Sequence record: MZ291552.2
Length of the DNA stretch: 64,000 nucleotides
DNA from: Escherichia phage vB_EcoM-UFV09
Direction: 5' to 3' (one strand)
Below are positions 4,066 through 5,080 of the stretch, in pieces. Both the position numbers and the translations under genes were made by a program. The notes below the pieces were generated by a model that saw only the letters and a list, made by a program, of their open reading frames with translations, was not told the DNA's origin and ran no database searches. Within the stretch, counting starts at the first letter, position 1, and each line of letters opens with the position of its first letter.

Positions 4066-4141
4066 TGGTCGAGGCAGTAGGGATCGAACCTACGACCCAG
4101 GACTTAGAAGGTCCTTGCTCTTCCTTCTGAGCTATGCCCCG
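4066..4141 (-). tRNA. tRNA-Arg (anticodon TCT)
   Basis: Hand-folded cloverleaf: acceptor CGGGGCA with TGCCTCG, anticodon loop CTTCTAA, T-loop TTCGATC, encoded CCA. Confidence 0.8.
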
Positions 4142-4145
4142 TAAT

Positions 4146-4221
4146 TGGGGTGACCGATGGGAGTCGAACCCATGACTACGAGAATCACAATCTCGAGTTC
4201 TACCAACTGAACTACGGCCAC
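4146..4221 (-). tRNA. tRNA-His (anticodon GTG)
   Basis: Hand-folded: acceptor GTGGCCG with CGGTCAC, anticodon loop TTGTGAT, T-loop TTCGACT, CCA. Confidence 0.75.
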
Positions 4222-4335
4222 ATTAATACCTACTCCAACAATCATGATGTCTTCACACGAAATTAAGAGAAGAGTGATCAGTTCAACCCCTATAATCGCG
4301 TCAAGTAGATATTAATGTGACAGTTGTCACAAATT

Positions 4336-4410
4336 TGGCGGACGTGATAGGATTCGAACCTATAACCAATCGCTTAACAGGCGATCGCTCTGCCATTGAG
4401 CTACACATCC
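4336..4410 (-). tRNA. tRNA-Asn (anticodon GTT)
   Basis: Hand-folded: acceptor GGATGTG with CACGTCC, anticodon stem ATCGC/GCGAT with loop CTGTTAA, T-loop TTCGAAT, CCA. Confidence 0.8.
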
Positions 4411-4414
4411 AAAT

Positions 4415-4501
4415 TGGTGGGGAGTGATGGAGTCGAACCACCCGAGTCGCAATGACAATGAATTTACAGTCCACACCGCTACCTCTACGGGATAACTCCC
4501 C
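4415..4501 (-). tRNA. tRNA-Tyr (anticodon GTA), type II with long variable arm
   Basis: 87 nt; acceptor GGGGAGT with ACTCCCC; anticodon loop CTGTAAA; the anticodon stem relies on G-U pairs, so the isotype is less certain. Confidence 0.6.
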
Positions 4502-4507
4502 TTAATT

Positions 4508-4582
4508 TGGTGGCCCTGGGTGGAATTGAACCACCATCTGGCGATTATGAGTCGCTTGCTTGAACCTTCCAGCTACAGGGCC
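4508..4582 (-). tRNA. tRNA with CAT anticodon (Met, or Ile2 if lysidine-modified as in T4)
   Basis: Acceptor GGCCCTG with CAGGGCC, anticodon loop CTCATAA, T-loop TTCAATT; sits between Thr and the next tRNA where T4 has tRNA-Ile. Confidence 0.7.
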
Positions 4583-4583
4583 T

Positions 4584-4659
4584 TGGTGCTGATTGACGGA
4601 ATCGAACCGCCGACATCCTCATTACAAGTGAGGTGCTCTACCTACTGAGCTAAATCAGC
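4584..4659 (-). tRNA. tRNA-Thr (anticodon TGT)
   Basis: Acceptor GCTGATT with AATCAGC, anticodon stem CCTCA/TGAGG with loop CTTGTAA. Confidence 0.8.
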
Positions 4660-4664
4660 AAAGC

Positions 4665-4754
4665 TGGCGGAGGCGATAGGATTTGAACCTATGAATCGCC
4701 GGAGCGACTGCCGGTTTTCAAGACCGGTGCATTAAACCACTCTGCCACGCCTCC
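4665..4754 (-). tRNA. tRNA-Ser (anticodon TGA), type II
   Basis: 90 nt; acceptor GGAGGCG with CGCCTCC, anticodon stem CCGGT/ACCGG with loop CTTGAAA, long variable arm. Confidence 0.8.
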
Positions 4755-4756
4755 AG

Positions 4757-4830
4757 TCTCCATACAAGGATTTGAACCTTGGACCTCCTGATCCCAAATC
4801 AGGCGCTCTACCAAACTGAGCTACACGGAG
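4757..4830 (-). tRNA. tRNA-Pro (anticodon TGG)
   Basis: Acceptor CTCCGTG with TATGGAG (two G-U pairs), anticodon loop TTTGGGA; CCA not encoded. Confidence 0.75.
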
Positions 4831-4840
4831 TAAATTAAAT

Positions 4841-4914
4841 TGGAGCGGATAATGAGAATCGAACTCACATCATCAGATTGGAAGTCTGAGGTAATACCAT
4901 TATACGATATCCGC
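4841..4914 (-). tRNA. tRNA-Gly (anticodon TCC)
   Basis: Acceptor GCGGATA with TATCCGC, anticodon stem TCAGA/TCTGA with loop CTTCCAA, CCA. Confidence 0.8.
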
Positions 4915-4919
4915 AAATT

Positions 4920-5006
4920 TGGTGCGAGAAGTGGGACTCGAACCCACAAGGAAATCATTCCGCAGCATTTTAAGTGCTGTGCCTTTACCAATTTGACCAT
5001 TCTCGC
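4920..5006 (-). tRNA. tRNA-Leu (anticodon TAA), type II
   Basis: 87 nt; acceptor GCGAGAA with TTCTCGC, anticodon stem CAGCA/TGCTG with loop CTTAAAA. Confidence 0.8.
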
Positions 5007-5007
5007 G

Positions 5008-5080
5008 CTGGGAATAAAGGATTCGAACCTTTGCATCTAGCAGTCAAAGTGCTATGCCTTACCAACTTGGCTAATTCCCA
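5008..5080 (-). tRNA. tRNA-Gln (anticodon TTG)
   Basis: Acceptor TGGGAAT with ATTCCCA, anticodon stem TAGCA/TGCTA with loop CTTTGAC; 1-nt gap to tRNA-Leu, as in the T4 Gln-Leu dimeric precursor. Confidence 0.75.

What the first reader, a model, noticed from the sequence alone, without database searches (positions are those of the whole stretch)
4066..5080. Expanded 11-gene tRNA array, including His, Asn and Tyr beyond the classical T4 set
Hand folding gives, in minus-strand transcription order, Gln(TTG), Leu(TAA), Gly(TCC), Pro(TGG), Ser(TGA), Thr(TGT), a CAT-anticodon tRNA (Met or Ile2), Tyr(GTA), Asn(GTT), His(GTG) and Arg(TCT). T4 is known to carry eight (Gln, Leu, Gly, Pro, Ser, Thr, Ile, Arg) in this order, so this phage keeps the T4 backbone and adds Tyr, Asn and His. 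Phage tRNAs are proposed to compensate codon usage and to replace host tRNAs cut by anticodon-nuclease defences; the extra isotypes may reflect that.
Basis: partly seen in the sequence, partly recalled or inferred. Interest (0 to 1): 0.5.

Follow-up and report, generated by a model that had tools for sequence, protein, structure and literature searches.

The report
T-even phage 11-gene tRNA cluster
The eleven tRNA genes are real and exactly as described, but this array is already annotated in hundreds of T4-like coliphage genomes, so it is ordinary; the one odd detail is an unannotated, conserved structured RNA just upstream of a tRNA-His that lacks the usual extra 5' G.

Summary
Observation confirmed. 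The stretch is 100% identical to Escherichia phage vB_EcoM-UFV05/06/10/11 (Tequatrovirus), where all 11 are annotated. At least 186-241 phage records carry essentially the same array.

It is a mosaic, not simply T4 plus three genes.
- Gln to Thr are 97-100% identical to T4.
- The CAT tRNA, Tyr and Asn are identical to the phage T2 alleles; Arg differs from T2 by 1 nt. T4 has a different Ile, segB and a different Arg here.
- tRNA-His arrived as a cassette together with a 94-nt upstream element.

The CAT tRNA is Ile2-type, not Met. The genome lacks segB but keeps SegB's preferred target inside tRNA-Asn.

On function, Asn and Tyr are the two amino acids most enriched in this phage relative to an E. 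coli sample. The T2/T6 tRNA-Tyr is published as a counter to Septu, and tRNA-Asn is a PARIS target. His fits neither idea: it is the least enriched amino acid, and the gene encodes T, not G, at -1.

The Asn-His "spacer" is a conserved RNA fold with covariation, unannotated in 355 phage records and resembling T5 RNAIII.

Novelty: already known.

The parts
5007..5080 (-). tRNA-Gln (TTG), first gene of the cluster; no encoded CCA
   Evidence: ARAGORN; Rfam 67.3 bits; 73/74 identical to T4
4920..5006 (-). tRNA-Leu (TAA)
   Evidence: Rfam 59.3 bits; 87/87 identical to T4
4841..4914 (-). tRNA-Gly (TCC)
   Evidence: Rfam 65.8 bits; 74/74 identical to T4
4756..4830 (-). tRNA-Pro (TGG)
   Evidence: Rfam 66.8 bits; 75/75 identical to T4
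4665..4754 (-). tRNA-Ser (TGA); its 3' end is the T2-type ...GCCAGC
   Evidence: Rfam 63 bits; 87/90 identical to T4, with the differences at the 3' end
4584..4659 (-). tRNA-Thr (TGT); anticodon arm reads U36AAUG|A41
   Evidence: Rfam 75.4 bits; 76/76 identical to T4; anticodon arm read
4508..4582 (-). CAT-anticodon tRNA, Ile2 (lysidine) type, T2 allele
   Evidence: 100% identical to the T2 'Met(CAT)' gene and only 47/75 to T4 Ile. The best E. coli matches are annotated tRNA-Ile in 5424 of 5426 genomes. It has C4-G69 and C5-G68, and its anticodon arm is identical to an E. coli prophage tRNA-Ile.
4415..4501 (-). tRNA-Tyr (GTA), long variable arm
   Evidence: 100% identical to T2 and 1 nt from T6 tRNA-Tyr; no E. 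coli chromosomal match
4336..4410 (-). tRNA-Asn (GTT); anticodon arm reads U36AAGC|G41
   Evidence: Rfam 74.1 bits; 100% identical to T2 and RB18 Asn; no host tRNA-Asn match
4334..4360 (-). 27-nt sequence matching the preferred SegB homing-endonuclease site (T-arm to the 3' end of tRNA-Asn)
   Evidence: GGTTCGAATCCTATCACGTCCGCCAAA. It fits GGTTCRANTCC and has G6, A16, G18, A26 and A27, as described for T2L in PMC2330249.
4317..4330 (-). small hairpin GUGACA-AC-UGUCAC between Asn and the structured element
   Evidence: a similar TGTCACA hairpin is seen in STP4-a and Karamvirus loci
4222..4316 (-). conserved, unannotated structured RNA element of about 94 nt. It has a closing stem P1 of 14 bp, an internal hairpin P2/P3, and a small hairpin P4 with loop UCAUGAU. 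It ends exactly at position -1 of tRNA-His.
   Evidence: Folds at -32.7 kcal/mol, z = -3.7. Present in 355 phage records with nothing annotated under the match in the records listed. 92% of cells paired against 49% or less in slid controls, and 8 pairs with changes on both sides. Covariance model hit 4221-4319 at 113 bits, a single copy in the window. No Rfam family.
4146..4221 (-). tRNA-His (GTG) with C73 and encoded CCA, but T instead of G at position -1
   Evidence: Rfam 65.1 bits; 80.3% identical to E. coli hisR; the alignment shows T at -1 in four phages against G in E. coli
4066..4141 (-). tRNA-Arg (TCT), T2-type allele
   Evidence: Rfam 63.9 bits; 1 nt from T2 Arg, identical to RB18 Arg, and unlike the T4/T6 Arg allele
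3697..4047 (-). ORF of 116 aa between tRNA-Arg and the RNAD homologue; function unknown. T2 and RB18 annotate a CDS of the same length in the same position.
   Evidence: phrog_3355, E = 8.6e-54, 'unknown function'; annotated CDS in UFV05, RB18 and T2
3585..3700 (-). homologue of T4 rnaD (small stable RNA, function unknown)
   Evidence: alignment to T4 gives 88/119 columns identical, with conserved ends and a variable centre
3440..3578 (-). homologue of T4 rnaC (small stable RNA, function unknown)
   Evidence: 137/139 identical to T4 rnaC
3362..3388 (-). G+C-rich hairpin followed by a T run (GCCCCGACCAAAAGGTTGGGGCTTTTT); likely the terminator of the tRNA/stable-RNA unit
   Evidence: read from the sequence; conserved with T4; function inferred
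5081..5166 (-). leader upstream of tRNA-Gln, nearly identical to T4
   Evidence: alignment; no consensus sigma-70 promoter was found here by the simple scan

Best explanation
This is the tRNA gene region of a Tequatrovirus (T4-like coliphage). Over the stretch compared, the window is identical to phage vB_EcoM-UFV05.

The region is a co-oriented minus-strand block containing 11 tRNA genes, a 94-nt structured RNA, one small ORF and homologues of the T4 stable RNAs RNAD and RNAC, followed by a terminator-like hairpin. By analogy with T4, it is transcribed as long precursors that host RNase P and 3'-processing enzymes cut into individual RNAs (inferred).

The array is the fullest known version of a polymorphic locus. 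Its left part (Gln to Thr) is the T4 sequence. Its right part (Ile2-type CAT tRNA, Tyr, Asn, Arg, ORF116) is the phage T2 allele. An [element + tRNA-His] cassette sits between Asn and Arg. T4's own eight-gene version carries the homing endonuclease gene segB and different Ile and Arg alleles in this place. This genome is segB-free and retains SegB's preferred cleavage site in tRNA-Asn. In a mixed infection with a segB-carrying phage, its Ile2-Tyr-Asn-His-Arg module would therefore be expected to be overwritten (inferred from the T4 x T2L crosses).

Functionally, the tRNAs read codons that the AT-rich phage uses far more than its host does. Some also act as spare copies of tRNAs that host defence nucleases destroy. 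This is shown for the near-identical T6 tRNA-Tyr against Septu, and is plausible for Asn and Thr against PARIS. tRNA-His is not explained by either idea.
For: Genes and isotypes.

Identity to deposited, annotated genomes and frequency. 241 records cover at least 80% of 3900-5300, and 186 cover at least 80% of the Tyr-to-Arg block.

T4 map (Gln...Ile, segB, Arg, rnaD, rnaC).

Mosaic structure. The insertion relative to T2 is shown. The rnaD and rnaC homologues are shown.

Variant arrays in relatives: T2 has 9 tRNAs, T6 has 7 plus segB, RB18 has 10 plus segB.

SegB site: against PMC2330249, which shows SegB homing from T4 erases the T2L Met(CAT)/Tyr/Asn/Arg module.

Codon demand: AGA 8.9x, ATA 3.9x, ACT 3.8x, GGA 3.1x, TCA 2.7x, AAT 2.7x, TAT 2.2x and TTA 2.1x relative to the host sample. 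Asn (1.68x) and Tyr (1.60x) are the two most enriched amino acids.

Defence link: PMC13096335 reports that Septu cleaves tRNA-Tyr, that T6 tRNA-Tyr dosage rescues infection, that T4 without tRNA-Tyr cannot escape, and that T2 is resistant. The window's Tyr is the T2 sequence. [quoted passage not shown] The window's copies read UAAUG|A (Thr) and UAAGC|G (Asn).
Against: Nothing here measures expression, processing, charging or any defence phenotype for this phage.

The codon comparison uses 56 heuristic ORFs from the window and only 36 CDS from one 50-kb E. coli segment.

Septu EcB88 also cleaves the T6 tRNA-Tyr, so rescue works by dosage rather than by resistance. A single-copy gene without segB may therefore give limited protection.

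The phage has no tRNA-Lys, so a resistant Asn or Thr alone should not defeat PARIS. T4 still needed T5 tRNA-Lys.

His is the least enriched amino acid (0.60x), and the gene lacks G-1. Its contribution to translation is therefore doubtful.
Confidence: 0.88

Rival explanations
1. The three extra tRNAs serve only to match supply to the phage's codon demand and have no role in defence evasion.
For: Asn and Tyr are the two amino acids most over-represented in the window's ORFs relative to the E. coli sample (1.68x and 1.60x). AAT and TAT are 2.7x and 2.2x enriched. The eight classical tRNAs likewise read the most enriched A/U-ending codons.
Against: His is the most under-represented amino acid (0.60x; CAT 0.76x, CAC 0.36x), so demand cannot explain tRNA-His. 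Lys is 1.5x enriched, yet there is no tRNA-Lys. The near-identical T6 tRNA-Tyr has a demonstrated anti-Septu effect.
Confidence: 0.3
2. The extra tRNAs are kept mainly as replacements or decoys for host tRNAs cleaved by defence nucleases: Tyr for Septu and retron-Eco7 PtuAB, Asn for PARIS AriB. All three are also G34-U35 tRNAs, the class cut by colicin E5-type enzymes.
For: Published experiments cover T6 tRNA-Tyr and T5 tRNA-Asn. The window's Tyr is identical to T2's, and T2 is Septu-resistant. The window's Asn differs from the AriB motif at positions 39 and 41. The phage-type Tyr has no E. coli chromosomal match, but the searches matched it at about 81-95% identity in records of unrelated phage groups and E. 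coli plasmids. Colicin E5 targets Tyr, His, Asn and Asp (abstract of PMC1635277).
Against: No defence system is known to target tRNA-His alone. The phage copies keep U33-G34-U35 and would remain substrates of E5-type enzymes. Septu also cuts the phage Tyr. No experiment exists for this phage.
Confidence: 0.4
3. tRNA-His is not primarily a translational tRNA. It either travels as a passenger of the [structured RNA + His] cassette or works together with that RNA, for example as a unit whose 5' processing yields a non-canonical 5' end.
For: T rather than G at -1 in every His copy examined in these T4-like phages. T5 also has T at -1. G-1 is a major HisRS identity element in bacteria (review PMC9976931). 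His is under-used. The upstream element and His are adjacent in Tequatrovirus, Karamvirus, Klebsiella T4-likes and Moonvirus. T5 has the same arrangement of a stable RNA (RNAIII) abutting tRNA-His.
Against: The tRNA has a normal cloverleaf (65 bits), C73, a GUG anticodon and encoded CCA. The T5 record notes that its tRNA-His derivative is an effective suppressor, which means it is charged in vivo. The element also occurs without His in STP4-a and A7_1.
Confidence: 0.3
4. Some of the calls are tRNA-like pseudogenes or chance cloverleaves.
For: Tyr fails the general Rfam tRNA model.
Against: All 11 genes are called by two independent programs. Ten score 59-75 bits. The sequences are conserved at 95-100% across hundreds of genomes. 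The nearly identical T6 tRNA-Tyr was detected by Northern blot and tRNA-fragment sequencing.
Confidence: 0.02

Closest known systems
Phage T4 tRNA gene region (NC_000866: tRNA Gln-Leu-Gly-Pro-Ser-Thr-Ile, segB, tRNA-Arg, rnaD, rnaC)
   Same: Both lie on the same strand with the same order of the eight shared isotypes. Gln to Thr are 97-100% identical, the upstream leader is nearly identical, and the rnaC (137/139) and rnaD homologues and the terminator hairpin lie downstream.
   Different: The window has no segB. Its CAT tRNA and Arg are different alleles. Tyr, Asn, the 94-nt element, His and ORF116 are absent from T4.
Phage T2/T2L (and RB1/RB3) tRNA region described by Brok-Volchanskaya et al. 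2008 (PMC2330249)
   Same: Both are segB-free. The CAT tRNA, Tyr and Asn genes are identical, Arg differs by 1 nt, and a CDS of the same 351-nt length follows Arg. The preferred SegB site in tRNA-Asn is present.
   Different: T2 lacks Thr and His and has an ORF between Ser and the CAT tRNA. In T2, Asn and Arg are separated by only 4 nt (AATA), where the window has the hairpin, element and His insertion of about 190 nt.
RB18, AR1 and the many Tequatrovirus genomes with Tyr-Asn-His-Arg
   Same: They have the same Ser-Thr-Ile(CAT)-Tyr-Asn-[element]-His-Arg-ORF116 module. The RB18 record already notes 'CAU anticodon probably modified'. 186 records hold the Tyr-to-Arg block.
   Different: RB18 has segB in place of tRNA-Pro and so has 10 tRNAs. 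Other relatives carry GIY-YIG or HNH endonuclease insertions. The window has all 11 tRNAs and no endonuclease.
Phage T6 tRNA-rich region (Chihara et al. 2026, PMC13096335)
   Same: tRNA-Tyr differs by 1 nt. It lies in the same locus.
   Different: T6 has segB next to Tyr and the T4-type Ile and Arg alleles, with 7 tRNAs in all. SegB-driven amplification of Tyr is not available to a segB-free genome.
Phage T5 RNAIII, a 106-nt 'stable RNA with unknown functions' annotated immediately 5' of T5 tRNA-His
   Same: Both are RNAs of about 100 nt abutting the 5' end of tRNA-His within a phage tRNA cluster. Both have a closing stem of about 14 bp that encloses internal hairpins and a small 4-bp hairpin next to the 3' strand. 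In both, the nucleotide before G1 of tRNA-His is T.
   Different: No detectable sequence similarity was found. The covariance model of the window's element finds nothing in the T5 tRNA region. Homology is therefore not shown, only the same position and architecture.

Membership tests
tRNA (Rfam RF00005 / cloverleaf tRNA genes) | Cloverleaf detected by tRNA finders, with the anticodon in a 7-nt loop | tested here: met
   ARAGORN calls all 11. tRNAscan-SE calls the same 11 in the identical GenBank record.
tRNA (Rfam RF00005 / cloverleaf tRNA genes) | Score above the Rfam gathering threshold (29 bits) | tested here: met
   10 of 11 score 59.3-75.4 bits. Tyr has a long variable arm and is seen only as a tRNA-Sec clan hit at 29.9 bits; its identity rests.
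T-even (Tequatrovirus) tRNA gene region | Sequence identity and synteny with the T4/T2 locus (trna.2/trna.3-side ORFs upstream; rnaD, rnaC and e.8-side downstream) | tested here: met
   100% identical to UFV05. Gln to Thr and rnaC are 97-100% identical to T4. The flanking genes correspond.
tRNA-Ile2 (CAU anticodon converted to lysidine by TilS) as opposed to tRNA-Met | C4-G69 and C5-G68 in the acceptor stem (TilS determinants, from my knowledge of Ikeuchi et al. 2005) and an Ile2-like anticodon arm | tested here: met
   The acceptor stem is GGCCCUG/CAGGGCC. The anticodon arm AGCGACUCAUAAUCGCC is identical to an E. coli prophage tRNA annotated Ile. The best E. coli matches are annotated tRNA-Ile in 5424 of 5426 genomes.
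tRNA-Ile2 (CAU anticodon converted to lysidine by TilS) as opposed to tRNA-Met | Lysidine present at position 34 and charging with isoleucine | not testable with these tools
   This needs RNA mass spectrometry or an aminoacylation assay.
Bacterial-type tRNA-His | GUG anticodon and discriminator C73 | tested here: met
Bacterial-type tRNA-His | Genome-encoded G at position -1 pairing with C73 (major HisRS identity element; PMC9976931) | tested here: not met
   Position -1 is T in the window, RB18, Roth16, fGh-Ecl04, Merlin, FBB1 and T5, and G in E. coli hisR.
SegB homing-endonuclease recipient allele (as T2L) | Absence of segB from the tRNA region | tested here: met
   No ORF lies between the tRNAs. 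The T4 segB region has no counterpart.
SegB homing-endonuclease recipient allele (as T2L) | Preferred 27-bp site in tRNA-Asn: GGTTCRANTCC plus G6, A16, G18, A26 and A27 | tested here: met
   GGTTCGAATCCTATCACGTCCGCCAAA at 4334-4360 fits the description in PMC2330249. The gene is identical to T2 Asn.
SegB homing-endonuclease recipient allele (as T2L) | Actual cleavage by SegB and loss of the module in crosses | not testable with these tools
   Shown for T2L only.
Phage tRNA-cluster small stable RNAs (T4 RNAC/RNAD, T5 RNAI/RNAIII) | Located inside the tRNA cluster, co-oriented with it, and with ends abutting tRNA genes | tested here: met
   The element at 4222-4316 ends at -1 of His. In Roth16 it exactly fills the Gln-His gap. 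It is co-oriented with the flanking tRNAs in all loci examined.
Phage tRNA-cluster small stable RNAs (T4 RNAC/RNAD, T5 RNAI/RNAIII) | Conserved secondary structure | tested here: met
   92.1% of cells paired against 34-49% in slid controls. 8 pairs show changes on both sides. P1 is 99% and P4 100% paired. Only 10 sequences from a few lineages were available.
Phage tRNA-cluster small stable RNAs (T4 RNAC/RNAD, T5 RNAI/RNAIII) | Accumulates as a discrete stable RNA in infected cells | not testable with these tools
   No expression data are held for phages that carry it.
Phage tRNA-cluster small stable RNAs (T4 RNAC/RNAD, T5 RNAI/RNAIII) | Sequence homology to T5 RNAIII or T4 RNAC/RNAD | tested here: not met
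   The covariance model finds nothing in the T5 tRNA region or in the T4, T2 and T6 loci.

The most novel reading that the evidence does not exclude
The 114-nt 'spacer' between tRNA-Asn and tRNA-His (core 4222-4316) may be an undescribed small RNA gene of T4-like phages.

It folds as a long closing helix enclosing two hairpins. It is conserved with compensatory changes across Tequatrovirus, Karamvirus, Klebsiella T4-like phages, Gelderlandvirus, Moonvirus (closing helix only) and one Vequintavirinae phage. It is absent from 185,579 bacterial and archaeal genomes. Nothing was annotated under the match in the 60 of 355 records listed.

It may be the counterpart of T5 stable RNAIII. Together with the conserved T at -1, it could determine how the G-1-less phage tRNA-His gets its 5' end. 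Alternatively it could act on its own, since it persists without His in two lineages, for example as a processing-released decoy or regulator.
Probability: 0.45. Interest if true: 0.5.

Novelty: already known. Interest (0 to 1): 0.2.

Why it matters
The array itself adds nothing new. It is annotated in GenBank and its components are described in the literature: T2L, RB1 and RB3 in 2008, the RB18-type genomes, and T6 tRNA-Tyr against Septu in 2026.

It is useful as a clean example of the full, endonuclease-free allele of a locus that homing endonucleases reshuffle, and whose content (Tyr, Asn, Thr) now predicts sensitivity to tRNA-cutting defences such as Septu, retron-Eco7 and PARIS.

Two side observations may matter more. 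The first is a conserved structured RNA that genome annotations miss. The second is a phage tRNA-His without the G-1 that E. coli HisRS normally needs. Both are cheap to test and bear on the long-open question of what the 'stable RNAs' of phage tRNA clusters do.

Tried and rejected
- **Degraded tRNA in the spacer:** Rfam at E up to 1 on 3500-5700 and up to 10 on 4200-4345 gave no tRNA or other credible family there.
- **Sigma-70 promoter for His-Arg in the spacer:** the simple scan found no minus-strand promoter there. Promoter-like sites in the region were no more frequent than in shuffles (7 against 6.1).
- **Host origin of the extra tRNAs:** Tyr has no E. coli chromosomal match, Asn matches no host tRNA-Asn, and His is only 80% identical to hisR. 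They are phage-lineage genes, not recent captures.
- **More copies of the 94-nt element:** there is only one in the window and none in the T4, T2, T6 or T5 loci. A pattern scan of 185,579 bacterial and archaeal genomes found none. Viral and metagenome scans added only T4-like contigs, and most 18-mer viral hits were chance matches.
- **P2 helix of the element:** it is weakly supported. The 20-64 and 24-60 pairs break in several sequences.
- **Loop complementarity:** a match between the element's loops and the tRNA-His anticodon loop is not conserved between the two interior variants, so I dropped it.
- **Literature on phage tRNA-His lacking G-1 or on T5 RNAIII:** searches found nothing usable.
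- **Python access to loci:** scripts could not open L002 (T4), so T4, T2 and T6 comparisons were made through DNA alignment.
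Full report
**Observation.** ARAGORN on the whole window returns 11 tRNA genes and no others. All are on the minus strand between 4066 and 5080. The Rfam tRNA model hits ten of them at 59-75 bits, against a gathering score of 29. The long-arm tRNA-Tyr appears only as a sub-threshold tRNA-Sec clan hit. It is still called Tyr by ARAGORN and by tRNAscan-SE in GenBank, and it is identical to the T2 gene and 1 nt from the T6 gene.

**Source and frequency.** Window 3900-5300 is 100% identical to Escherichia phages vB_EcoM-UFV05, UFV06, UFV10 and UFV11 (Straboviridae, Tequatrovirus). 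All 11 tRNAs are annotated there. 241 phage records cover at least 80% of that query, and the 27 best listed hits are colinear over its full length. 186 records hold at least 80% of the Tyr-Asn-spacer-His-Arg block. The array is therefore common and already annotated.

**Comparison with T4 and other T-even phages.** The window is not simply T4 plus three insertions, however.
- Gln to Thr are 97-100% identical to T4. Similarity stops 12 nt into the CAT tRNA.
- The CAT tRNA matches T4 Ile in only 47 of 75 columns, and the Arg gene is a different allele from T4 and T6.
- The CAT tRNA, Tyr and Asn are 100% identical to the T2 genes. Arg differs from T2 by one base.
- Homologues of T4 rnaD (3585-3700) and rnaC (3440-3578, 137/139 identical) follow a 116-aa ORF of unknown function, and a terminator-like hairpin lies at 3362-3388.

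Relatives show that the locus is polymorphic. T2 has 9 tRNAs and no segB, T6 has 7 plus segB, and RB18 has 10 with segB replacing Pro. The window carries the union of all these genes and no endonuclease.

**The SegB connection.** Brok-Volchanskaya et al. (PMC2330249) showed that T2L, RB1 and RB3 lack segB and carry Met(CAT), Tyr, Asn and a different Arg. They showed that SegB cuts preferentially within a 27-bp site in tRNA-Asn. In T4 x T2L crosses, segB homing replaced that module in more than 99% of progeny. The window's tRNA-Asn is identical to T2's. It contains GGTTCGAATCCTATCACGTCCGCCAAA (4334-4360), which fits the published core GGTTCRANTCC and all five discriminating positions G6, A16, G18, A26 and A27. 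This genome is thus a segB-free recipient allele. Relative to T2, where Asn and Arg are 4 nt apart, the window has an insertion of about 190 nt bounded by CCAAAT and CCAAT. These are the CCAR contexts after which SegB prefers to cut. That fits cassette shuffling at tRNA 3' ends, though this is an inference.

**Identity of the CAT tRNA.** Its best E. coli matches are annotated tRNA-Ile in 5424 of 5426 genomes. Its acceptor stem has C4-G69 and C5-G68. Its anticodon arm is identical to that of an E. coli prophage tRNA-Ile. The RB18 record already notes that the CAU is probably modified. It is an Ile2-type tRNA reading AUA, a codon 3.9x enriched in the phage.

**Function.** I compared 56 long ORFs of the window (18,018 codons) with 36 annotated CDS from a 50-kb E. 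coli segment (11,858 codons).
- The eight classical tRNAs read strongly enriched codons: AGA 8.9x, ATA 3.9x, ACT 3.8x, GGA 3.1x, TCA 2.7x, TTA 2.1x.
- Asn (1.68x) and Tyr (1.60x) are the two most enriched amino acids.
- His is the least enriched (0.60x).

Codon supply therefore explains Tyr and Asn but not His.

On the defence side, Chihara et al. 2026 (PMC13096335) show four things. Septu cleaves tRNA-Tyr in the variable arm. Extra copies of T6 tRNA-Tyr rescue infection. T4, which lacks the gene, cannot escape. T2 is resistant. The window's Tyr is the T2 sequence.

PARIS AriB cuts tRNA-Lys, tRNA-Thr(UGU) and, less well, tRNA-Asn(GUU) at U36AAUC|N41, and T5 variants of all three are needed for full rescue (PMC12409363). 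The window's Asn reads UAAGC|G and its Thr reads UAAUG|A. There is no tRNA-Lys, so full PARIS evasion is not expected.

None of the three extra genes is a recent host capture. Tyr has no chromosomal E. coli match, Asn matches no host Asn, and His is 80% identical to hisR.

**The spacer is a conserved structured RNA.** The 114 nt between Asn and His fold at -32.7 kcal/mol (z = -3.7).
- The 94-nt core (4222-4316) recurs at 78-100% identity in 355 phage records, and nothing was annotated under the match in the records listed.
- It occurs in Tequatrovirus, Karamvirus, Klebsiella T4-likes, Gelderlandvirus STP4-a and the Vequintavirinae phage A7_1. It is always co-oriented with the flanking tRNAs.
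- It is usually immediately 5' of tRNA-His. In STP4-a only a GTGG remnant of His follows it. In A7_1 it lies between Gly and Gln.

On ten distinct sequences, a three-way junction model fits well. The model has P1 of 14 bp, a P2/P3 hairpin, and P4 of 4 bp with loop UCAUGAU. It has 92.1% of cells paired, against 34-49% when partners are slid. Eight pairs change on both sides. P1 is 99% paired and P4 100% paired, with three pair types at one position. The P3 hairpin exists in two unrelated sequence versions that both pair.

A covariance model finds one copy in the window (113 bits) and none in the T4, T2, T6 or T5 loci. A pattern scan found none in 185,579 bacterial and archaeal genomes. Moonvirus Merlin keeps P1 (14 of 14 pairs, with new compensatory changes) around a different interior. 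Roskildevirus FBB1 keeps only a P1-like hairpin. No Rfam family matches.

The closest known thing is in T5. Its record annotates a 106-nt 'RNAIII, stable RNA with unknown functions' directly abutting tRNA-His. It folds with the same topology, a closing stem of about 14 bp plus a small 4-bp hairpin next to its 3' strand. No sequence similarity was found.

**tRNA-His lacks the encoded G-1.** E. coli hisR has G before G1. The window, RB18, Roth16, fGh-Ecl04, Merlin, FBB1 and T5 all have T, while C73 is retained. G-1 is a principal HisRS identity element in bacteria (PMC9976931). The T5 record includes the T in its annotated tRNA-His and notes that a suppressor derivative works, so such tRNAs may be charged. 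I cannot tell whether U-1 is retained, or whether the adjacent P1 helix influences RNase P site choice. P1 can also extend 3 bp into G1-U2-G3 through an upstream CAC.

**Verdict.** The finding is correct and its interpretation is essentially right, but it describes a known, annotated feature of many Tequatrovirus genomes. Novelty: already known. Interest: low. The structured RNA and the G-1-less tRNA-His inside the reported interval are the parts that deserve follow-up.

Noticed in passing
window 4222-4316 (minus strand), with a hairpin at 4317-4330: The Asn-His 'spacer' is a conserved structured RNA of about 94 nt, with covariation in its closing stem and in a small hairpin. It is present in 355 phage records across several Tevenvirinae genera and one Vequintavirinae phage, and nothing was annotated under the match in the records listed. 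It has no Rfam family and is absent from bacterial genomes. It resembles T5 stable RNAIII in position and architecture.
   Followed up: yes
window 4221-4222 (position -1 of tRNA-His): The phage tRNA-His gene has T, not G, at -1, although C73 is kept. The same holds in RB18, Klebsiella phage Roth16, Karamvirus, Moonvirus, Roskildevirus and T5. The bacterial HisRS identity nucleotide G-1 is therefore not encoded. His is also the amino acid the phage uses least relative to its host.
   Followed up: partly
window 3440-3700 (minus strand); ORFs 3496-3624 and 3329-3490: Homologues of the T4 stable RNAs rnaD and rnaC are present but are not annotated as RNAs in the identical GenBank record (UFV05). 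That record, and the T2 record, instead carry small 'hypothetical protein' CDS over or beside them, which are probably spurious.
   Followed up: partly
L007 (E. coli plasmid NZ_CP024264.1, 16053-16603): The phage-type tRNA-Tyr has no E. coli chromosomal match. It is 80-95% identical to a tRNA-Tyr on plasmids of 269 E. coli genomes. In the one plasmid examined (93.1% identical), it sits in an Asn-Tyr-Thr-Ser array next to DNA ligase and integrase genes, which looks like a phage-plasmid. The same Tyr type matches rV5-like and T5-like phage records at about 84-95% identity.
   Followed up: partly
window 4334-4360: An intact preferred SegB homing-endonuclease target lies inside tRNA-Asn in a genome that has no segB. 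It is identical to the T2 sequence used to define the site.
   Followed up: yes
window 4140-4150 and 4330-4340; L004 1026-1062: Relative to T2, the [hairpin + element + tRNA-His] cassette is inserted between junctions reading CCAAAT and CCAAT. These lie right after tRNA 3' CCA ends, the CCAR context where SegB prefers to cut. This suggests that tRNA cassettes are exchanged at these points.
   Followed up: partly
L006 (E. coli M19 chromosome, 2290899-2290974): The closest E. coli relative of the CAT tRNA (81.6% identity) is a tRNA-Ile about 200 nt downstream of a prophage antiterminator Q gene and upstream of a tRNA-Gly. It is therefore a prophage-borne tRNA.
   Followed up: no
phage database hits: Some records look mislabelled by host. 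'Pseudomonas phage PsgM02F' is 97.9% identical to this coliphage region. Several 'Campylobacter phage' records (A116, A141) match it over the same query span and at about the same identity as ~135-140-kb Escherichia phage records, one of which is classified Vequintavirinae.
   Followed up: no
window 3697-4047 and 5167-5691 (minus strand): The two ORFs flanking the RNA cluster belong to PHROG families of unknown function (phrog_3355 and phrog_2290). T2 and RB18 annotate a CDS of the same 351-nt length in the ORF116 position just after Arg; T4 has none between Arg and rnaD.
   Followed up: partly
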